From: Bdellovibrionota bacterium
Lineage (GTDB): Bacteria > Bdellovibrionota_C > UBA2361 > JAFLCA01
Reading direction: 5' to 3'
DNA length: 64,000 nt
Assembly (NCBI GenBank): GCA_030584005.1
Contig: CP129486.1
Location: 2,219,971-2,283,970 of the forward strand
Under the pieces are notes generated by a model that saw only the letters and a program-made list of their open reading frames with translations, was not told the origin of the DNA and made no database searches. Position 1 is the first letter of the stretch. Each line of letters starts with the position of its first letter. Shown in pieces: positions 47,602 through 56,851 of this stretch. The translations under genes and the position numbers were made by a program.

Positions 47602-48819
47602 TTATTTGTGTCCAAAGACCAGCATCAATAGCTGTTTCATCCGAACAAGGATGCTCCTTTCGTGCTCTGCCCGTGGTGCCTGGGCCATTGCAGCGCTTTG
47701 AGTATCAACAGGTTGGTCATCAACCTTGGCAGTAGTAAGTACCCTCTGACGGGATTGCACTGCTAAGTCTGCTAAGTCGGACAGCGTCGACGTCCCGAGA
47801 TCTGTTGCAACGGCATCAAGAGGGCTTTTGGTCCCGACTCCTTTTTCTATCGTGACATGGGTATAAATCATAGTGGTTTTAAGATCGTTGTGACCAAGTA
47901 ACACCTGTACCGTTCGTACATCGGTCCCCGAATCGAGAAGGTGAGTTGCAAACGAGTGGCGACAGGTGTGGCAGGTCACTTTCTTTTGAATACCGGCTTT
48001 TTTGACCGCACAAGCCAAAGCATCTTGCATAATAGTTGGGTAGAGATGCCAGCGTCCTTCTTTTCCTGTACGTGGGTCCATTGAGCGCTTAAGCCAGGGG
48101 AAGACATACTGCCATTTCCATTCGGCGTCGGCGTTTGGATACTTTCTTTGAAGCGCATACGGAAGAATCGTGCGACCGAAGCCCTCCTTTATGTCTTGCC
48201 CGTGAACAACGTTCGCTTTCTCAAGTTGCTTTCGTAGTGGTCCTCTCAGGAACTTGGGGAGTGGGACGGTTCTATCTTTCTCGCCTTTGGCATCCCGAAC
48301 GATTATGAGATTCCGCTCGAAGTCTATATCTTTGACCCGGAGTTTTAACACCTCGATGAGCCGCATGCCGGTGCCATAGAGCAGGCATCCAATCAACCAC
48401 TGTACGCCAGACAGATTTTTTATGACTGCTATCATCTCATCAACACTTAATACAACAGGGATGTGCCTTGGCCTCTTGGCCCAGACGATTCCTTCAAACA
48501 TTCCAGGATCCATCTGAAGAACGTGTTTGTAGAGGTACACGATTCCGTTGAGCGCTTAATTCTGAGTCGCAGCGGACACGTTCTTGTAAGCTGCGAGGTA
48601 GCTCAGGAACTGAGTAATCTCCTCGGCTCCCATCTCTCTTGGGTGCTTGCCTCTGTGAAACGCAACAAACCGCTTGGCCCAATGGGTATATGTTTTCTCG
48701 GTAAATTGGCTCATATGCGCGAGGCGCATCTTCTCTCGCATTACCTGGAAGAGTCCCTTAGGCTTGCTCGCGGCGGGAGGGCCGAGGCTGATCCTTTCTC
48801 TGGGGTTGCATGGGTCCAT
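47602..48819 (-). pseudogene. intI: integron integrase IntI, interrupted by in-frame TAA (stop at 48556..48558)
   Basis: ORFs 48556..48819 and 47602..48540 are in the same frame. Together they align end-to-end with IntI: N-terminus YTHWAKRFVAFH; LLYGTGMRLIEVLKLRVKDIDF; KGEKDRTVPLP; the IntI-specific extra segment ALQRKYPNADAEWKWQYVFPW; the catalytic HTCRHSFATHLL..LLGHNDLKTTMIYTHV. TAA sits where IntI1 has Gln (..STHRQALAAL..). Confidence 0.85.
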
Positions 48820-49088: not shown

Positions 49089-49511
49089 CGCAAAATGAGT
49101 TTTATGAAAAGAACGCCGTTCAAACGAATTATATCGGAAGTTCCGCAGCAAGAGGCGCACGATGGTGTGGGATTGCGCCGAGTACTTTTGTCTTCCGATC
49201 TACCGATTGCAAAGAATCTGCAAGCTATGACCCATGGAATTATGAAGCCCAGAACTTCCTTGGGGTGGCATCTCCATGACGATAAGGATGAAGTAATTCT
49301 TCTCATCCGGGGAAATGGCGTGGTGCATATTGATGGTGGCGAAAGTTTGCCTTGCGCTGCTGGCGATGTTCTATACATACCTGCGGGTAACCGACATCGA
49401 ATTGAGAATTTAAGTGATTCTGAGCTTGAAGAGTTTTTCTTCCGCGTCTTTGCTGAAGCGGGAGAACAATCAAGCGCAGCCGACCGCCCTGACGGGCGGC
49501 GGCTGGCTTAA
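49080..49511 (+). CDS. cupin-domain protein (integron cassette 1)
   Basis: Two-His cupin motif HLHDDKDEVILLIRGNG...G..LYIPAGNRHRIEN. 3' end runs into attC1. Confidence 0.65.
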   Translation: MFSRKMSFMKRTPFKRIISEVPQQEAHDGVGLRRVLLSSDLPIAKNLQAMTHGIMKPRTSLGWHLHDDKDEVILLIRGNGVVHIDGGESLPCAAGDVLYIPAGNRHRIENLSDSELEEFFFRVFAEAGEQSSAADRPDGRRLA

Positions 49512-49521
49512 ACCGTTCTCC
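49461..49521 (+). other. attC site 1
   Basis: R'' GGAGAAC (49461) ... inverted core R' GTTCTCC (49515). Internal imperfect palindrome CAGCCGACCGCCC / GGGCGGCGGCTGG. Paralogous to the attC at 50591. Confidence 0.65.
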
Positions 49522-50028: not shown

Positions 50029-50096
50029 ATTATCGTATATACGCTAATTATGCGAGTGTTTTATAGAGTTATCGCCAAAACGCTGCTAAAGTTGCG

Positions 50097-50153
50097 GGAG
50101 AACAATCGGATCGAGCCGAGGCGAGCGCGCCCGGCTCATCCTGGCCGTTATGG
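50097..50153 (+). other. attC site 2 (BrnTA cassette end)
   Basis: GGAGAAC (50097) ... palindrome GAGCCGAGGCGAGCGCGCCCGGCTC ... GTTATGG (50147). The next ORF's ATG sits in the R' core. Confidence 0.55.
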
Positions 50154-50596
50154 CGTTAATGATGCGAAGAAGCTTTATTTCATGGTTAGTTGGATCTGCG
50201 ATTGGATTGCTTTTAGGGATCATCGTCTACTCCACCATTCCAGGGGTAAAGGTATTACCAGCGATTCGAGGATCCGTCGGCGAGCTCTTTATAAGAGCAC
50301 TTGTCCTTCCGGCGGTGGAGCTCTTTTTCGGAATAGGTGCATTTCTGTTGGCTTTGGGACCAATCACCACTGGTCGTTGGGGATCACGCCCTATAGCATT
50401 TTTCTTAATATCGTTTGCGCTCTCGTTAGGCTTGTATGCAATTTTGTTTATTGCAGGGTGTCTAGCTATTGGTGGGTATTTTCAGGAAGCAGGATTGGCT
50501 TTCTTGCCCGTATTTCTTTTAGCTTGGCCTGTGATTGCGATTTACTCGCTTCCCGTTGTGTTGGGAGTTATAGCCTTAGGTCGGAGGACGCCATAA
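50150..50596 (+). CDS. hypothetical integral membrane protein (cassette)
   Basis: 148 aa with 4 hydrophobic helices. Stop codon lies within attC. Confidence 0.5.
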   Translation: MALMMRRSFISWLVGSAIGLLLGIIVYSTIPGVKVLPAIRGSVGELFIRALVLPAVELFFGIGAFLLALGPITTGRWGSRPIAFFLISFALSLGLYAILFIAGCLAIGGYFQEAGLAFLPVFLLAWPVIAIYSLPVVLGVIALGRRTP

Positions 50597-50651
50597 CAAT
50601 CAAGCCCAGCCGACCGCCCTGGCGGGCGACGGCTGGCTTTAACCGTTATGC
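50591..50651 (+). other. attC site 3
   Basis: CCATAAC (50591) ... CAGCCGACCGCCCTGGCGGGCGACGGCTGG ... GTTATGC (50645). Near-identical to attC1. Confidence 0.65.
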
Positions 50652-51312: not shown

Positions 51313-51407
51313 GCATAACAACGAAATCCACCAGATTGTCGCGCGCGACTTGCGAGGCAATTCGTGCTACAGTATGGCGCAACGACTGGTGATTTTATCC
51401 GTTATCC
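51313..51407 (+). other. attC site 4
   Basis: GCATAAC (51313) ... GTCGCGCGCGAC palindrome ... GTTATCC (51401). Confidence 0.6.
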
Positions 51408-51758: not shown

Positions 51759-51855
51759 GGATAACAAACGCCTCGACGGGAGGTGCGACCCGCGAGCGAC
51801 CGTAGAGATTTTAACGCCTGAGTGGGTCGCACCCCCGTCAGGCAGCCCGTTCTCT
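51759..51855 (+). other. attC site 5
   Basis: GGATAAC (51759) ... GGTGCGACCCGCGAGCGACC ... GGGTCGCACC ... GTTCTCT (51849). Paralogous to the attC at 59221. Confidence 0.6.
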
Positions 51856-52284: not shown

Positions 52285-52292
52285 GGTTGGCG

Positions 52293-52388
52293 AGAGAACA
52301 AATGGAGCGAGCGGAGGAAAGGTCGCAAACGTTTGTGAAGAATGGTAGAGTTGGAATGGCCTCTCCCCGCTCCTCCTCACCGTTATCC
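52293..52388 (+). other. attC site 6
   Basis: AGAGAAC (52293) ... GTTATCC (52382). Confidence 0.6.
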
Positions 52389-52396
52389 CGAACAGT

Positions 52397-52756
52397 ATGA
52401 GCCTTAGTCGTTATGCTGCTTACACCGTCTTCTTTCTCGCCATCTTATTTTTGGGCATCTGCGGATTACGGATGCAGTGCCGTTATGATTCCCAATGTGC
52501 CGATGCTTACAAGGACGAGGGTAAGCCGATAGTTCAGACGATTGCATCTTATCGCGGACTCAAGGGCAGATGTCCTGAAACACTATCCGAAATCGGATTC
52601 TCAGCGCCGTTCACAAGGTTTGGATGGTGGAAGTACTACCGAGCTCCCGATGGGCTGCAGTGCGGTCTCTCTCTCGGAGGAGATGGTATCTTCTTCATTG
52701 GATGGGATTCGTCGGGCCCTGGAGATAATGGCGATGGATGGATCCTTGGCGATTAG
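52397..52756 (+). CDS. hypothetical membrane-anchored protein (cassette)
   Basis: N-terminal TM segment YAAYTVFFLAILFLGICGL. Cys- and Trp-containing soluble part. Confidence 0.4.
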   Translation: MSLSRYAAYTVFFLAILFLGICGLRMQCRYDSQCADAYKDEGKPIVQTIASYRGLKGRCPETLSEIGFSAPFTRFGWWKYYRAPDGLQCGLSLGGDGIFFIGWDSSGPGDNGDGWILGD

Positions 52757-52785
52757 CGCGGGATAACAGCTATAAGGCCCCACCG

Positions 52786-54340
52786 AGTCAAGAAATAAAA
52801 AGAGAGTTCTGACCGAACCCTGGAGGCCTTTCTAATTCTTGAGAACCGCGCGTATTGCGAGGGTAGATTTCTAAGAACGGTTTGTAGGTGCCGCGAAGGC
52901 GTCTACACCAAACAGCTATTGGGGGTCGTTGAGCCACCAGAAACCCATCTGACACCTGCACGTAAGCTATGCAAGGAGATCGGGATAAGCGCAGAGGCTT
53001 TCACCAGTTGTTACGAGCCGAACGGAGGAGGCAGACGCGTAAGATCAGTTCCAAGCTATATGTAAAAGTGGGACGTGCGAGAGTTCTAGACAAACGTGGT
53101 GCGAGCTTTTTGGCGATGCAGCATGCGTGACGGACAAGCTTGAAGAGCTTACGAGTGTCGACGCGAATGGATTTGAATCGCCTATAAGTAGCTCAGTTAT
53201 ACCGCGAGACTCATCCCGCACTCCCGAAAAATCAGTTAAGCTGCGTTGGCATAAAATTTCTCAGCCTCCCACGGAGTTCGGCGTAAAAGGATAAAGTACA
53301 CAATTCTGGCGATTTTATGAGCGAGAACTGCGAGTGCTTTTGGCTTAGGATGCTTGCGGCAGAGAGCTTCGTACATTCTTTTTCCCTCTGCTGTGCGCAA
53401 AGAGAGCACAGCCGCTTCGGCGAATGCCCAGCGCAGGTGATGATTTCCGATTTTGGCACTCCCCCGGACACTGCCGCCTTTGGATTTCCGGCAGAGGTCT
53501 TCTGTGGCTTTATCAGCCGACAGTAAGATACAAAGTCCTGTACCGAGGGAAAGCGTGTGATGTCGTGAATCTCATAGAAGATAGTGGCAGAAAGGACAGG
53601 TCCGATGCCAGGAACGCTTCGGAGTAGTGCGATATTGAATCCAATCTCACCCTTGAGCTTTACTTGTGAAGTGACAAAGCTTTCGAGGTTATGGATCTGC
53701 GTAGTGAGATGTCCAATGGTGGCCAGGTCAGTCTCAACCATTCGGACAACAGCCTCGTCGCTGAATGGAATATCGAGTTCATTACGGCTCTTGTGATGAA
53801 CAAGATCAGTGGTAGGCGGTGGCAGGTTGTATTGCTGAAAGGTCATCTGAACATGGGCCAAGAGCTCTGACCGTCGATGAACGAAGAACAGCCTGCGTCG
53901 CATAAGGTCACGTGCTCCCCGCTGCTGTGCCGGGTAGACGAAGGCTTTTGGCAACATGCCACTCTTCAGAAGCATCGCAATTTTTTCAGAGTCGATTCGG
54001 TCATTGGCAGCTTTGCCACCGTGGATAGCTTTCATATACAGCGCATGCCCAAGGACAAACGTGATCCCCTCAGCCGCGCACACGTCAGCCAGCCAATACC
54101 AGCAGAACATGCACTCAACCGCTATGGCAAGGTTCTCGCGATACGGCGCAATGACCCTTAGCAACGCCTCCTTATTGGGCACATTCTTATGACACAGGAC
54201 TTTCCCTACCTTATCGACAATGCACACGTACATCGTCTTTGCATGCAGATCGATACCGCAGTAATATTCATGCTGTTCGTTATAGAACTTCATAAAAGCC
54301 TCCGTTTTGAGTTTCGCTCATGACCAATGAGCTTGCTCCC
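52786..54340 (-). mobile_element. IS110-family insertion sequence inserted within an attC site (boundaries approximate)
   Basis: Transposase ORF 53232..54293 lies between two halves of a single attC. The left half is GGATAACAGCTATAAGGCCCC at 52761. The right half is GGGGGCCTTTATGAGTG..GTCAATCC at about 54371, complementary to the left half. Total about 1.55 kb. Confidence 0.5.
53232..54293 (-). CDS. IS110-family transposase (DEDD/RuvC-like N-terminus)
   Basis: N-terminus CGIDLHAKTMYVCIV (the DEDD_Tnp_IS110 start). C-terminal block LRSVPGIGPVLSATIFYEIHDITRF...GNPKAAVSGG typical of IS110/IS1111 transposases. Confidence 0.85.
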   Translation of the reverse strand: MKFYNEQHEYYCGIDLHAKTMYVCIVDKVGKVLCHKNVPNKEALLRVIAPYRENLAIAVECMFCWYWLADVCAAEGITFVLGHALYMKAIHGGKAANDRIDSEKIAMLLKSGMLPKAFVYPAQQRGARDLMRRRLFFVHRRSELLAHVQMTFQQYNLPPPTTDLVHHKSRNELDIPFSDEAVVRMVETDLATIGHLTTQIHNLESFVTSQVKLKGEIGFNIALLRSVPGIGPVLSATIFYEIHDITRFPSVQDFVSYCRLIKPQKTSAGNPKAAVSGGVPKSEIITCAGHSPKRLCSLCAQQREKECTKLSAASILSQKHSQFSLIKSPELCTLSFYAELRGRLRNFMPTQLN

Positions 54341-54496
54341 ACTGTGGAACAACTCTTTCGATGCTCCAAGCGGGGGCCTTTATGAGTGTCAATCCGCTCC
54401 ACCAGATCTGCGCCCAGTGGATTAGATGGCAGCTCGAGAGTAAGATTTTGGGAGCAAACTGGTGAGCGTTTGCCTTGGTCCCTATCGGAAATATCC

Positions 54497-55447
54497 ATGT
54501 CACCGCAAAGACTATTATCGATTATTCGTCCTCACGGACTATTCTTATTACGCCATAAGCTAGCTTTCATATCGCAAACTGCCCCAGTGAAAGGCCTTCT
54601 CGGCCAGCGTAGTGTTGGGCTTTTTAAACTACTGTCCTGGCAACCCGGTGAACAAGCCTCAATTACCGAATTTGAAGACGTCCCGGTCGAGCGAATCTCT
54701 TGGGTGAGCTCAGTGGTCTCTGGCGAGAAGACCTATTTTCTGATTCATAACGGTCAAAGACATGGAGTCTTTGAGTTTACCAAATCGAAGCTTCGGCACG
54801 TTTGCTACCTGAGTGCAACCTCGAGATCTGTATGCATTTGGGATGACCAACTTTGCTCCCTTTCCTATGATATTGGGGGGCAGCTATTGCTTGAATACAT
54901 TGATCCGACGACTGGGAACATATTGTCACGAGCCTTGGCTGGACGAGGAGCAATAAAAAGGTCTGACCTATTGTCGACCATTCCTTCGGGCATCGTAGTC
55001 AGTACCGGGGAGCGGCTCCTCCTTTGTCGGCCAGAATCAGAAAGCATGGAAGAGATAATTGCCGGCGAGATCTCTCATGGCTGTTTGGCCATAGGGGATG
55101 ACTTATACTTCGTCAAGGAATGGAGAAAGGTATTCCACATGAATCTTGCAACACGAAAGATTGAGCTGGTTTCGGAAGAACCGAATCGCGTTCATTTCAT
55201 TGGAGCGAGTGGCGCCGGGCCGTTCTGGTGGTGTGGAGATGATCAGCAAGCAGAGGTGCGCCGCGCATCTGGTACGCATGTTGAAACAGTCCACACCATT
55301 CCTGGTTCGTTTCATCCGCCAATCCTTGTAGACGATTCACTGTACTGGATGTCATATCCAAAGAATGAAGGTCAAATTGGAATATTGATGGGTTTAAAAG
55401 TTGCGATGTCGGGGCAACATAGGGATCAACGCGAGAATTTTGCATAA
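54497..55447 (+). CDS. hypothetical protein (cassette, upstream partner of the deaminase)
   Basis: ORF track gives 54386..55447 starting at GTG inside the attC remnant. First ATG Met is MSPQRLL at 54497. About 316 aa, beta-rich. No motif recognised. Confidence 0.45.
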   Translation: MSPQRLLSIIRPHGLFLLRHKLAFISQTAPVKGLLGQRSVGLFKLLSWQPGEQASITEFEDVPVERISWVSSVVSGEKTYFLIHNGQRHGVFEFTKSKLRHVCYLSATSRSVCIWDDQLCSLSYDIGGQLLLEYIDPTTGNILSRALAGRGAIKRSDLLSTIPSGIVVSTGERLLLCRPESESMEEIIAGEISHGCLAIGDDLYFVKEWRKVFHMNLATRKIELVSEEPNRVHFIGASGAGPFWWCGDDQQAEVRRASGTHVETVHTIPGSFHPPILVDDSLYWMSYPKNEGQIGILMGLKVAMSGQHRDQRENFA

Positions 55448-55494: not shown

Positions 55495-55956
55495 ATGGAT
55501 CATCTTCCCCACATAAGGCGCGCGATTGAATTGGCTGCGCTAGCTCGTGAGCGCGGCGACGAGCCCTTTGGTGCGCTATTGGTATTGGACAACAGAGAAA
55601 TTCTCTGCGCGGAGAACTCTGTACGCCTTGCTAGAGATCCAACGAACCACGCCGAGATGAATCTCGTGCGCAAAGCCTGGCAAGAACTGTCACCATCAGT
55701 GATTGCAGATTCGATTCTTTATACATCGACCGAGCCTTGTCCTATGTGCACTGGAGCTATTTTTTGGTCGGGGATCCGTCGAGTGGTTTTCTCGTTCTCG
55801 GCAGAAGATCTGGGAAAGATGGCAAATGACAAATTTTGCGGTCCATGTAGCGTTCTGTTCAATCGTGCAGAGCAGAAGACCGAAGTCATTGGCCCGATAT
55901 TAGCGGAAGAGGGTCGCAGAGTGCACGAGGGATTTTGGAGTAGCGTCAACAGATAA
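55495..55956 (+). CDS. CMP/dCMP-type zinc deaminase (guanine deaminase / TadA-like)
   Basis: HAE...PCxxC zinc-binding signature (NHAEMNLVRKA ... EPCPMCTGAIFWSGI). 153 aa. Starts 47 nt after the upstream ORF with no attC between them. Confidence 0.75.
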   Translation: MDHLPHIRRAIELAALARERGDEPFGALLVLDNREILCAENSVRLARDPTNHAEMNLVRKAWQELSPSVIADSILYTSTEPCPMCTGAIFWSGIRRVVFSFSAEDLGKMANDKFCGPCSVLFNRAEQKTEVIGPILAEEGRRVHEGFWSSVNR

Positions 55957-56048
55957 CAACTGGCGCCACACGGAGGCGAAGCCGCGTGAGCTCTGTGCTG
56001 GTGTGTAGCCACGTAATGGCTTCGCCCCGATGCGCGAAACCGTTCTAA
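55951..56048 (+). other. attC site
   Basis: AGATAAC (55951, overlapping the stop) ... GGAGGCGAAGCCGCGTG / CACGTAATGGCTTCGCC ... GTTCTAA (56042). Confidence 0.6.
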
Positions 56049-56066: not shown

Positions 56067-56759
56067 GTGAACATTACTCTCATCGGGATGTCCAATTTAG
56101 GAAAGACGCACTGGGCGACCAGATTGGAAACTGAATGTGGCTTTCGTCGCATCGATTGCGATGCGCTTGTAGAAGCCGCTCTTAGCCCCTATCTCCAAAC
56201 AAAGGGATACTCGGGGGTGCAGGACGTGGCGAAATGGATGGGGCAACCGTTTGACGAGCAATATCCTGCGACGAGCCAAGAGTTCGTTCGATGTGAGCGT
56301 GAGGTAATGCTCCAAATTGTTAACGTACTTCGACAGGCGCAAATCAAAGATGGGCCACCTCTAGTTGTAGATACTTGCGGAAGCGTTATCTACGCCGGTG
56401 ATGACATCAGAAAATCACTGTGCGAGTTGACCCATGTTGTCTATCTAGAGGCGTCCGACGCGCATAGAGCTCAACTCTTCGAGCGTTATATGGCTGAACC
56501 AAAGCCTGTCATTTGGGGTTCGGTTTTCAGTCAAGGACGTGGCGAGACTCCTCATGAGGCTCTTGCGCGTTGTTATCCGCAGCTCTTATCCTCCCGCGCG
56601 CGCCTCTATGAAGAGTGGTCGCACGTCAAGATACCGTTTGAGACGCATAGAGCAGTGGGTATCTCTCCAGCATCGGTTTTTTCGGAGCTGCAGCTGGGCT
56701 CCGGCAAACCAACTCAAGCAGAACGGCCCGGCGCTCAGCATGGAATTCAAGGAAGATAA
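56067..56759 (+). CDS. P-loop NTPase, shikimate-kinase-like / small-molecule kinase family (cassette)
   Basis: Walker A IGMSNLGKTH near the N-terminus. Fold resembles shikimate, gluconate or antibiotic kinases of the NMP-kinase superfamily. Confidence 0.5.
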   Translation: MNITLIGMSNLGKTHWATRLETECGFRRIDCDALVEAALSPYLQTKGYSGVQDVAKWMGQPFDEQYPATSQEFVRCEREVMLQIVNVLRQAQIKDGPPLVVDTCGSVIYAGDDIRKSLCELTHVVYLEASDAHRAQLFERYMAEPKPVIWGSVFSQGRGETPHEALARCYPQLLSSRARLYEEWSHVKIPFETHRAVGISPASVFSELQLGSGKPTQAERPGAQHGIQGR

Positions 56760-56851
56760 CACATTTTCACCCAGATTTGGCGCCCACGTTGAGATAGAGG
56801 CAATTCGAGACTACAATGAGGACGCCAAACTGGTGAAAATAGCCGTTATCC
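56754..56851 (+). other. attC site
   Basis: AGATAAC (56754) ... CAGATTTGGCGCC / GACGCCAAACTGG ... GTTATCC (56845). Paralogous to the attC at 58145. Confidence 0.7.

What the first reader, a model, noticed from the sequence alone, without database searches (positions are those of the whole stretch)
52761..54400. IS110-family element inserted inside an attC site, splitting it
The sequence GGATAACAGCTATAAGGCCCC (52761) is the left half of an attC. Its complementary right half GGGGGCCTTTAT-GAGTG..GTCAATCC appears only at about 54371, after a 1.55-kb segment. That segment carries a 353-aa IS110-type transposase (N-terminal GIDLHAK.., C-terminal SVPGIGPVLSATIFYEIHDITRF). Some IS110/IS1111-family elements are known to target attC sites specifically. 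This would be such an event captured in a chromosomal array, and it polarly separates downstream cassettes from Pc.
Basis: partly seen in the sequence, partly recalled or inferred. Interest (0 to 1): 0.55.

Follow-up and report, generated by a model that had tools for sequence, protein, structure and literature searches.

The report
Insertion sequence lodged in integron attC

Summary
The anatomy it proposed is wrong. The two complementary "attC halves" are the element's own subterminal inverted repeats. These repeats recur, with the same 7-bp left and 3-bp right extensions, in a 99% identical copy in a different attC and in about 80 relatives of 48-57% identity.

The element spans 52768-54391 (1,624 bp, minus strand). 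It lies exactly between the R'' core GGATAAC (52761-52767) and the rest of a 90-nt attC (54392-54474). The host is a chromosomal integron of a Bdellovibrionota MAG whose intI carries an in-frame stop.

The 353-aa ORF is a frameshift chimera caused by a 1-nt deletion in a G run, so this copy is probably non-autonomous, or the deletion is a sequencing error.

The transposase is 50% identical to ISGsu4 and gives no BLASTP hit to ISKpn4, so the element is not in the canonical IS1111-attC group. In the one ISKpn4 copy examined, the insertion lies 8 nt further into the attC.

The 3' non-coding region holds motifs that covary with the element's two ends, as expected for a bridge/seekRNA donor-binding module.

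Verdict: a known kind of event, in a separate lineage and a different register. Moderate interest.

The parts
52761..52767 (+). R'' core (GGATAAC) of the interrupted attC. It starts 4 nt after the stop codon of the upstream cassette ORF (52397-52756).
   Evidence: In 76 of 78 relatives the flank beyond the right end starts GTT, which is the reverse complement of ..AAC.
52768..54391 (-). The whole insertion sequence: 1,624 bp, IS1111-type architecture, transposase gene antisense to the cassettes. There is a 1-nt boundary ambiguity because A at 52768 equals A at 54392.
   Evidence: Ends were defined by comparison with L001, L083, L084 and about 80 relatives. It is the only copy in the window.
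52768..52770 (-). 3-bp right-end extension (GCT in element orientation).
   Evidence: It matches the IS1111 rule of 3 bp on the right (PMC11187229).
52771..52781 (-). Right subterminal inverted repeat IRR (GGGGCCTTATA).
   Evidence: The covariation scan recovers IRL-IRR pairs, for example LE+12 with NCR position 461.
52786..52791 (-). Conserved TTGACT, a -35-like hexamer near the right end. It could form a junction promoter when the two ends are joined in a circle (inference only).
   Evidence: CTTGAC is conserved in the NCR alignment. Junction promoters are documented for ISEc11 (PMC11187229).
52793..52821 (-). Terminator-like hairpin (52803-52821) with its T-run (52793-52802). Probable 3' end of the NCR transcript.
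52902..52925 (-). Motif 'block 6', CCCCCAAUA-GCU-GUUUGGUGUAGA. [quoted passage not shown] Candidate left-donor guide.
   Evidence: The internal triplet equals the right-end extension in 56 of 78 distinct elements, across 10 triplet types. Permutations gave a mean of 17.3 and a maximum of 29.
52934..52951 (-). Motif 'block 5', CAGAUGGGUUUCUGGUGG. It is complementary to left-end positions 5-10 (ACTCAT), with one G-T wobble. Candidate right-donor guide.
   Evidence: Left-end position 8 is paired in 73% of elements against 39% in permutations. Position 9 is paired in 74% against 62%. None of 2,000 permutations reached either value.
53002..53014 (-). Motif 'block 4', the second ..AACUGG copy (GUAACAACUGGUG).
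   Evidence: Conserved as CUAACUGG in relatives. No element-specific covariation with the flank.
53192..53205 (-). Motif 'block 1', GCGGUAUAACUGAG. It is 9 of 10 complementary to the flanking R'' strand GTTATCCCGC. Candidate target guide.
   Evidence: Support is at consensus level only: permutation p about 0.1, and Fisher p = 0.03 for the A/T pair.
52768..53235 (-). 3' non-coding region of 468 nt downstream of the transposase gene. This is where IS1111-type elements encode their seekRNA/bridge RNA.
   Evidence: See also PMC11187229 and PMC11208160. No Rfam family matches the region.
53236..54293 (-). Transposase gene (DEDD/RuvC-like domain plus Tnp domain). It is disrupted by a 1-nt deletion in a G run at 53488-53489. 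It also lacks one codon (context 54170-54185) compared with L001.
54372..54384 (-). Left subterminal inverted repeat IRL (CATAAAGGCCCCC). In the leader it also pairs with the SD and ATG of the transposase gene.
   Evidence: (pair I1).
54385..54391 (-). 7-bp left-end extension (TGACACT; TGATACT in most relatives).
   Evidence: It matches the IS1111 rule of 7 bp on the left.
54392..54474 (+). Remainder of the attC: spacer, L'', loop, L' and R' (GTTTGCC at 54468-54474).
   Evidence: The reconstructed 90-nt site folds like the neighbouring attCs and has an unpaired C in the L'' arm.
54497..55447 (+). Downstream cassette ORF with its probable true ATG. The listed GTG start at 54386 overlaps the element's end and the attC.
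47602..48819 (-). Integron integrase gene (context). It is interrupted by an in-frame TAA at 48556-48558.

Best explanation
A 1,624-bp insertion sequence of the IS110 family occupies 52768-54391 on the minus strand.

Shown from sequence:
- It has IS1111-type architecture: subterminal inverted repeats, a 7-bp left and a 3-bp right extension, and a long non-coding region downstream of the transposase gene.
- It lies exactly between the R'' core (GGATAAC|) and the spacer/L'' arm of a 90-nt attC, in a chromosomal integron of a Bdellovibrionota MAG. The transposase gene is antisense to the cassettes.
- The transposase gene has a 1-nt frameshift. This copy is therefore probably non-autonomous, unless the deletion is an assembly error.
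- R'' is separated from R' by 1.6 kb.

Inferred by analogy with ISEc11, ISKpn4 and IS621:
- The element excises as a circle joining the right and left ends.
- An RNA made from the 3' non-coding region binds the DEDD/Ser recombinase.
- Two motifs in that RNA hold the donor junction. [quoted passage not shown] The other is complementary to left-end positions 5-10.
- A conserved ..CUAAC motif pairs with the GTTAG/GTTAT strand of R'', so insertion occurs right next to AAC.
- With R'' 1.6 kb away from R', the folded attC that IntI needs can no longer form. The flanking cassettes are locked together.
For: Ends and target:
- L001 is 99% identical. Its homology to the window runs through the 'right half' and stops at 54392-54394. 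Beyond that point lies a different attC, TCCACCGG...CCGGTGGCTCAAGCCGTTATGC.
- L083 and L084 (79% and 72% aa identity) end at the same ...GGCCTTATAGCT|GTTAT.
- Relatives of 48-57% aa identity from many phyla share TGAYACT+IRL and IRR+3 bp.
- The flank beyond the right end starts GTT in 76 of 78 distinct elements.
- A simple detector found an R''/R' partner in most of the 67 reconstructed empty sites, and 37 passed the energy threshold. Many are textbook attCs, such as GCCTAAC...GTTAGGC.
- The copy on a Vibrio campbellii plasmid sits in a VCR-like site.
- The window's reconstructed attC is 90 nt and resembles the neighbouring attCs.

Protein:
- PF01548 and PF02371 match. After frame repair NF033542 matches at 182.9 bits, above the 140 cut-off.
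- D15, E61, D99 and S268 are invariant, and D102 nearly so, in 29 homologues.

RNA guides:
- The block 6 triplet equals the right-end extension in 56 of 78 elements, against a permutation maximum of 29.
- Block 5 covaries with left-end positions 8-9; no permutation of 2,000 reached the observed pairing.
- A terminator-like hairpin lies at the end of the non-coding region.

Literature:
- IS1111 features and the seekRNA (PMC11187229).
- Bridge RNA predicted in the right end for IS1111-type elements, including ISGsu4 (PMC11208160).
Against: - No RNA, circle junction or empty-site allele of this exact locus was observed. The RNA-guided mechanism is an inference from family membership plus covariation.
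- No element-specific guide for the left flank was found.
- The CUAAC/R'' complementarity holds only at consensus level.
- Part of the covariation could reflect shared ancestry among related elements.
- RNAalifold gave no consensus structure on the broad alignments.
- The window copy is frameshifted, so it may never move again.
- The source genome's other copies could not be examined.
Confidence: 0.88

Rival explanations
1. One reading: the element sits in the centre of an attC, and the flanking complementary 12-13-mers are the L''/L' arms of that attC.
For: The two stretches are complementary. The left one follows a genuine R''-like GGATAAC.
Against: - The same repeats travel with the element into different attCs (L001) and are conserved in about 80 relatives.
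- The proposed right end GTCAATC is a poor R'.
- A complete L''-loop-L'-R' lies at 54392-54474.
- The 55-nt 'reader attC' folds more weakly in total (-9.4 against -13.0 kcal/mol for the 94-nt construct; the corrected 90-nt site gave -13.1), and the fold leaves GGATAAC unpaired.
Confidence: 0.03
2. The transposase gene is itself an integron gene cassette, captured by IntI with its own attC, rather than an IS that transposed into an attC.
For: It lies within a cassette array between two cassette ORFs.
Against: - Removing 52768-54391 restores a single attC, with no second attC left over.
- The element carries terminal features typical of IS1111.
- The same element and its relatives always abut AAC| in the same orientation.
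- The gene is antisense to the array.
Confidence: 0.03
3. The element reached the attC without RNA guidance. For example, the protein might recognise the attC sequence or hairpin directly, and the conserved non-coding motifs might only be regulatory or structural.
For: - No left-flank-specific guide was found.
- Target complementarity is seen only at consensus level.
- GUUUGG in block 6 looks paired within a hairpin.
Against: - Two non-coding motifs covary with the element's ends in the strand pattern described for IS621 donor guides.
- The seekRNA was shown to be essential in four IS1111 members, including attC-targeting ISKpn4.
- Durrant et al. list a predicted bridge RNA in the right end of ISGsu4.
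Confidence: 0.1

Closest known systems
IS1111-attC group (ISPst6, ISPa21, ISKpn4; Tetu & Holmes 2008; Post & Hall 2009; Siddiquee et al. 2024)
   Same: - IS110-family DEDD transposase.
- Subterminal inverted repeats with 7-bp left and 3-bp right extensions.
- Long non-coding region downstream of the transposase gene.
- Insertion near the 5' (R'') end of attC, antisense to the cassettes.
- The ISKpn4 non-coding region also contains a ..UAACAAU stretch complementary to its target.
   Different: - BLASTP against TnpKpn4 gives no hit, and ISGsu4 is only 17% identical to ISPst6 in the published matrix.
- The inverted repeats differ: GGACTCTCCCC against CATAAAGGCCCCC.
- In the one copy examined (pHK31_1), ISKpn4 lies 8 nt beyond the AAC (TCTAACAATTCACA|), whereas this clade lies directly at AAC|.
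ISGsu4 / ISMahy12 / ISShfr7-ISShwo5 (ISfinder entries of the IS110 family)
   Same: - They are the closest named transposases: 50% identity to ISGsu4 and 48% to ISMahy12 over the full length.
- Durrant et al. list the predicted bridge RNA of ISGsu4 and ISShwo5 in the right end.
   Different: - Identity is below the roughly 70% used to group IS, so this would be a new IS name.
- I found no published statement that these IS target attC. Their own insertion sites were not examined here.
IS621 bridge recombinase and bridge RNA (Durrant et al. 2024; Hiraizumi et al. 2024)
   Same: - The same protein family.
[quoted passage not shown]
   Different: - The RNA is encoded at the 3' rather than the 5' end.
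- The order of the two donor motifs is reversed, with the RDG-like motif 5' of the LDG-like one. Siddiquee et al. report a reversed order in IS1111 for the target-matching segments, not for donor guides.
- The subterminal repeats are long.
- No shared core dinucleotide is evident at the two junctions.
Group IIC-attC introns
   Same: Mobile elements that home to the 5' end of attC in the antisense orientation (PMC3001079).
   Different: They are ribozyme/reverse-transcriptase retroelements, with no protein or end similarity to this element.

Membership tests
IS110 family (DEDD/RuvC-like plus Tnp-domain RNA-guided transposases) | N-terminal DEDD_Tnp_IS110 domain and C-terminal Transposase_20 domain, with the conserved D-E-D-D and Ser residues. 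| tested here: met
   PF01548 and PF02371 match. NF033542 matches at 182.9 bits, above 140, once the frame is repaired. D15, E61, D99 and S268 are invariant and D102 nearly invariant. The window copy itself is frameshifted just after the Ser motif.
IS1111 type within IS110 | Subterminal inverted repeats of about 11-13 bp, with extensions of 7 bp on the left and 3 bp on the right. | tested here: met
   The left end is TGACACT followed by CATAAAGGCCCCC. The right end is GGGGCCTTATA followed by GCT. These are conserved and covary in relatives. The rule is from PMC11187229.
IS1111 type within IS110 | The long non-coding region lies downstream of the transposase gene and encodes the seekRNA/bridge RNA. 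| tested here: met
   A 468-nt 3' non-coding region against a 98-nt leader. Motifs in the non-coding region covary with both ends. The RNA itself was not observed.
IS1111 type within IS110 | Transposase related along its full length to that of IS1111. | not tested
   IS1111 itself was not compared. ISfinder lists ISGsu4 under 'IS110' and ISShwo5 under 'IS1111', so the clade's subgroup label is unsettled.
IS1111-attC group sensu Tetu & Holmes (ISPst6-related monophyletic clade) | Transposase belongs to the ISPst6/ISPa21/ISKpn4 clade. | tested here: not met
   No BLASTP hit to TnpKpn4, and 25% identity over 76 aa to TnpPa25. ISGsu4 is 17% identical to ISPst6. No phylogenetic tree was built.
IS1111-attC group sensu Tetu & Holmes (ISPst6-related monophyletic clade) | Insertion near the 5' end of attC, antisense to the cassette array. 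| tested here: met
   The element lies directly after R'' AAC, with the transposase gene on the opposite strand. The register differs by 8 nt from the one ISKpn4 copy examined.
Bridge RNA / seekRNA-guided recombination | The non-coding RNA carries segments that base-pair with the donor ends. | tested here: met
   Sequence covariation only: the block 6 triplet matches the right-end extension in 56 of 78 elements, and block 5 covaries with left-end positions 8-9.
Bridge RNA / seekRNA-guided recombination | The non-coding RNA carries segments that base-pair with both strands of the target. | tested here: inconclusive
   CUAAC is complementary to GTTAG only at consensus level. No left-flank guide was found.
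Bridge RNA / seekRNA-guided recombination | The RNA is bound by the recombinase and is required for movement; a circular intermediate forms. | not testable with these tools
   This needs RNA-seq or RIP, junction PCR and transposition assays.
Integron attC site (the target) | R'' RYYYAAC and R' GTTRRRY flanking imperfect L''/L' arms with extrahelical bases, placed at the 3' end of a cassette. | tested here: met
   The reconstructed 90-nt site runs GGATAAC...GTTTGCC, with 5 of 7 R''/R' pairs and an unpaired C in the L'' arm. It starts 4 nt after the stop codon of ORF 52397-52756 and resembles the other attCs of the array. No attC covariance model was available.

The most novel reading that the evidence does not exclude
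The ISGsu4-like clade is a second, independently evolved lineage of RNA-guided IS110-family elements that home to integron attC sites. Its transposases are only about 17-25% identical to those of the ISPst6/ISKpn4 group.

It differs from the canonical group in four ways:
- It uses its own register, directly at the R'' AAC.
- The order of its donor-guide motifs is reversed relative to IS621.
- It has an internal motif that copies the right-end terminus.
- Its left inverted repeat doubles as an anti-Shine-Dalgarno element.

It is widespread in environmental phyla, including Acidobacteriota, Desulfobacterota, Gemmatimonadota, Planctomycetota, Nitrospirota, Bdellovibrionota and Vibrio. If so, it would be a general and so far undescribed parasite of chromosomal integrons.
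Probability: 0.55. Interest if true: 0.55.

Novelty: new variant of a known kind. Interest (0 to 1): 0.4.

Why it matters
The event itself is textbook: IS1111-type elements are known to invade attC sites.

The comparison turned up more than the single insertion. The window's element represents a large clade, with more than 150 loci fetched. That clade targets the R'' boundary of attC, yet it is unrelated at sequence level to the canonical IS1111-attC group, which has been described as monophyletic.

If confirmed, three things would follow:
- attC homing evolved more than once among bridge/seekRNA recombinases.
- There is a natural panel of elements, targets and guides for dissecting how IS1111-type RNAs read donor and target.
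- Integron surveys gain a diagnostic signature, TGAYACT-CATnnAGGCC ... GGCCTnATA-NNN|GTT, for a common cause of broken attC sites and fused cassettes in environmental arrays.

For annotation, it is a warning that the subterminal repeats of such elements can be mistaken for attC arms.

Tried and rejected
- **Rfam:** the gathering-threshold scan of the window found only a tRNA and no family for the non-coding region.
- **Source genome:** the genome and metagenome scans did not return the source genome or any relative above 57% identity. Closer copies came only from protein look-ups (L001, L083, L084). The P0003 contig had no DNA held.
- **Global covariation:** mutual information between the flanks and a MAFFT alignment of whole non-coding regions recovered only the IRL-IRR pairs. 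The rest was noise.
- **Exact 6-7-mer matches:** matching each non-coding region to its own flanks gave no consistent peak except the right-end copy in block 6.
- **Left-flank guide:** longest-common-substring tests for a left-flank-specific guide were negative in four sub-regions.
- **Block 1/4 against own R'' flank:** not better than permuted pairs.
- **RNAalifold:** broad alignments returned empty structures. Only a three-sequence fold was obtained, and I do not rely on it.
- **Second 9/10 match:** the match between 53213-53222 and the flank (pair I12) is about what chance predicts by my own estimate, and that stretch appears to be paired within the RNA.
- **First right-end detection:** the first automatic method was confounded by the internal block 6 mimic and by 1-nt slippage of fuzzy matches. 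It was replaced by an anchor independent of block 6.
- **Programmed frameshift:** considered and rejected. There is no slippery motif, and the intact relatives carry GGG where the window has GG.
- **Junction promoter:** the -35-like TTGACT would face GACACT/GATACT at a 19-nt spacing. This is plausible but too weak to claim.
Full report
**Observation**

The quoted strings are present. GGATAACAGCTATAAGGCCCC starts at 52761, and GGGGGCCTTTATGAGTGTCAATCC lies at 54372-54395. Between them, a 353-aa ORF on the minus strand (54293 to 53232) matches DEDD_Tnp_IS110 and Transposase_20.

The ORF is not intact. The Transposase_20 match stops at profile position 50 of 87. The NCBIfam IS110 score is 138.5, just under the cut-off of 140. 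A second reading frame carries the expected C-terminus, KIGNHHLRWAF...KALAVLAHKIARIVYF.

A protein search found an intact 353-aa homologue, P0001, at 99% identity. Aligning its contig L001 with the window shows two differences: a 1-nt deletion in a G run (GGG to GG, 53488-53489) and a separate 3-nt deletion. The repaired protein matches NF033542 over 1-342 of 343 positions at 182.9 bits. P0001 covers Transposase_20 positions 2-78 of 87.

**Context**

The window is chromosomal. It encodes RelA/SpoT, MutL and a Ser/Thr kinase. Exact protein look-ups place it in a MAG named Bdellovibrionota bacterium, on a 2.28-Mb contig.

An integron integrase gene lies at 47602-48819 on the minus strand (TIGR02249, 1.6e-99). 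It is split by one in-frame TAA at 48556-48558. The N-terminal piece carries PF13495.

From 49461 onward the + strand carries a series of attC sites, each running from an R'' of the form xxxxAAC to an R' of the form GTTxxxx. Examples are 49461-49521, 50591-50651, 51313-51407, 51759-51855, 52293-52388, 55954-56048 and 56754-56851.

**Where the element really ends**

L001 is a copy in a different place. Identity stops at window position 54392-54394. Beyond that point L001 has a different, very clear attC: ATCAAG-TCCACCGGACACGAACCGC-TGCGC-GCGGTTTCGTGCCGGTGGC-TCAAGCC-GTTATGC.

Two further relatives, L083 and L084 (79% and 72% aa identity), end at the same ...GGCCTTATAGCT|GTTAT. L084 starts at ...|TGATACTCATAAAGGCCCCC.

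Scans of genome and metagenome contigs gave 160 loci of 48-57% aa identity. They come from Acidobacteriota, Desulfobacterota, Gemmatimonadota, Planctomycetota, Nitrospirota, Calditrichia and other groups. These loci share the following ends:
- Left end: TGAYACT (7 bp) followed by an inverted repeat CATnnAGGCC(C/T)CC.
- Right end: the matching repeat GGnGGCCTnATA followed by 3 variable bp.

This is the published signature of IS1111-type elements: subterminal inverted repeats of 11-13 bp, with 7 bp beyond them on the left and 3 bp on the right (PMC11187229).

The element spans 52768-54391, which is 1,624 bp. There is a 1-nt ambiguity because the same base occurs at 52768 and 54392. It is the only copy in the window.

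**The target**

Removing the element joins GGATAAC to ATCCGCTCCACCAGATCTG...CAAACTGGTGAGCGTTTGCC. The result is a 90-nt site with these features:
- R'' is GGATAAC and R' is GTTTGCC (54468-54474).
- The L''/L' arms are GCTCCACCAG and CTGGTGAGC, with one unpaired C.
- The site begins 4 nt after the stop codon of the upstream cassette ORF.
- Its form resembles neighbours such as 51313-51407.

The same holds across the clade. With a definition of the right end that does not use the flank, 76 of 78 distinct elements are followed by GTT. The consensus flanks are ...GTCnGCTGCAnnnnnT| on the left and |GTTAGGC on the right. Read on the attC strand, that is GCCTAAC|A...TGCAGCnGAC.

A simple detector was run on 67 reconstructed empty sites. 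It found an R''/R' partner in most of them, and 37 passed the energy threshold. Many are textbook attCs; for L124 the site is GCCTAACACAGCATGCAGCGGACGGCGCTGCGCGCCGCCGCTGATGCTGAGCGTTAGGC. A copy on a Vibrio campbellii plasmid sits in a VCR-like site.

So the whole clade inserts directly after the AAC of R'', always antisense to the cassette strand.

**Relation to known attC-targeting IS**

The transposase is 50% identical to ISGsu4 and 48% to ISMahy12. These sequences were taken from the ISfinder set in the supplement of PMC11187229. BLASTP gives no hit to TnpKpn4 and only 25% identity over 76 residues to TnpPa25. The published identity matrix puts ISGsu4 at 17% to ISPst6.

The IS1111-attC group has been described as a monophyletic ISPst6-related subset that inserts near the 5' end of attC in antisense (PMC3001079). 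I examined one ISKpn4 copy, in pHK31_1. Applying the 7/3 rule, its flanks read TCTAACAATTCACA|IS|CCTTCAAGCCGAC. That places it 8 nt beyond the AAC, and its inverted repeats are different (GGACTCTCCCC).

The window's element therefore behaves like an IS1111-attC element. It fails the test for membership of that clade, and it uses a different register.

Durrant et al. list ISGsu4 and ISShwo5 with a predicted bridge RNA in the right end. I found no paper stating that this clade targets attC. The literature search covered open-access papers only.

**How it probably works**

IS1111-type elements move through a circle. They need an RNA from the downstream non-coding region that binds the transposase and matches both strands of the target (PMC11187229). 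[quoted passage not shown]

In the 468-nt non-coding region here, conserved blocks stand out.

*Block 6* lies about 150 nt before the right end. Its form is CCUCnAUA-NNN-GUUUGGUGCAG.
- NNN equals the element's own 3-bp right-end extension in 56 of 78 distinct elements.
- Ten different triplets are involved: GGT, AGT, TGT, TAT, CGT, CAT, GCT, GAT, GGC and GGG.
- In 5,000 permutations the mean was 17.3 and the maximum 29.
- In the window the sequence is AAUA-GCU-GUU at 52902-52925, matching the right end ...TATAGCT.

*Block 5* has the form GAUGAGUUUCUAGG (window 52934-51).
- It is complementary to left-end positions 5-10.
- Left-end position 8, which varies among C, G, A and T, is paired in 73% of elements against 39% in permutations.
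- Position 9 is paired in 74% against 62%. None of 2,000 permutations reached either value.

These two blocks have the strand logic of a donor-binding module. Their order is reversed compared with IS621. Siddiquee et al. report a reversed order in IS1111 for the target-matching segments.

*Blocks 1 and 4* are two copies of CG(U/C)CUAACUGG (window 53192-53205 and 53002-53014).
- They are complementary to the R'' strand GTTAG(G/A)CG.
- In the window, GCGGUAUAAC matches GTTATCCCGC at 9 of 10 positions.
- This complementarity holds only at consensus level: permutation p is about 0.1, and Fisher p is 0.03 for the A/T position.
- No guide specific for the left flank was found.

A terminator-like hairpin with a T-run lies at 52793-52821 on the minus strand. 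It precedes a conserved TTGACT. This fits an RNA 3' end followed by the -35 half of a possible junction promoter. The promoter is an inference only.

**Consequences**

R'' is now 1.6 kb from L''-L'-R'. The folded bottom-strand structure that IntI recognises therefore cannot form. The upstream cassette has lost its attC. This is an inference from established attC biology.

intI is itself a pseudogene here, so the array is probably static in any case.

The claimed polarity on downstream cassettes is untested. No intrinsic terminator-like site was found on the + strand within the element.

The element's transposase gene is frameshifted just after the conserved Ser motif (TSAG|). This copy would therefore depend on an intact copy supplied in trans. 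L001 shows that intact copies exist and that the element has moved recently: it differs from the window copy by only a handful of substitutions and two small deletions, yet sits in a different attC.

**Verdict**

This is a known kind of event. The element belongs to a distinct lineage, is new at the level of IS naming, and uses a different insertion register. The clade-level pattern is the more interesting result.

Noticed in passing
window 47602-48819 (-), stop codon at 48556-48558: The integron integrase gene is interrupted by a single in-frame TAA (..AATQN*ALNGI..), where homologues have Gln. The N-terminal piece carries PF13495 and the C-terminal piece matches TIGR02249. The ORF also extends about 69 aa beyond the profile's end.
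   Followed up: partly
window 54291-54303 and 54372-54384 (-); also the left ends of L002-L164: The left inverted repeat pairs with the Shine-Dalgarno sequence and start codon of the transposase gene in the leader (CAUAAAGGCC with GGCUUUUAUG). The minimum-free-energy fold shows the same pairing in 65 of 81 relatives, against 18 of 81 when the repeat is shuffled. This would explain why the repeat consensus AGGCC(T/C)CC is the complement of GGAGG.
   Followed up: partly
L034 (Longimicrobiales MAG), about 300-600 nt after the transposase stop codon: After the normal right end (..CCTGATAAGT) comes GTTTGGTGCAGA, then 143 nt, then a second right end followed by GTTAGATGG. This is a duplicate of the segment from block 6 to the right end. 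It suggests that the internal copy of the right-end terminus can act as a pseudo-end or a target.
   Followed up: no
window 54386-55447 (+): The listed 353-aa ORF starting at GTG 54386 overlaps the element's end and the whole attC. The cassette gene more likely starts at ATG 54497 (316 aa, no Pfam match). No attC was detected between it and the deaminase ORF at 55495-55956, so this may be a two-gene cassette.
   Followed up: partly
window 52793-52821 (-): A terminator-like hairpin (52803-52821) with a T-run (52793-52802) lies inside the element, just before the conserved TTGACT near the right end. No terminator-like site was found on the + strand of the element.
   Followed up: no
L165 (Vibrio campbellii ATCC BAA-1116 plasmid NC_022271): A 47% identical relative with the same ends sits in a VCR-like attC. 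It lies directly downstream of another IS110-family transposase gene and an IS4 transposase gene.
   Followed up: partly
P0005 (509 aa, ENA contig of 30 kb): A relative's predicted transposase contains an internal tandem duplication of about 160 residues of the N-terminal domain.
   Followed up: no
window 49461-49521 and 50591-50651: Two attC sites in the array are 92% identical over 53 nt. 50094-50130 and 52290-52326 also resemble each other, so the array holds sub-families of attC.
   Followed up: no
window 53213-53222 against 52755-52764: A second stretch of the non-coding region (AGUGCGGGAU) is 9 of 10 complementary to the flank just beyond R''. By my estimate this is about what chance predicts, and the stretch looks paired within the RNA.
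   Followed up: partly
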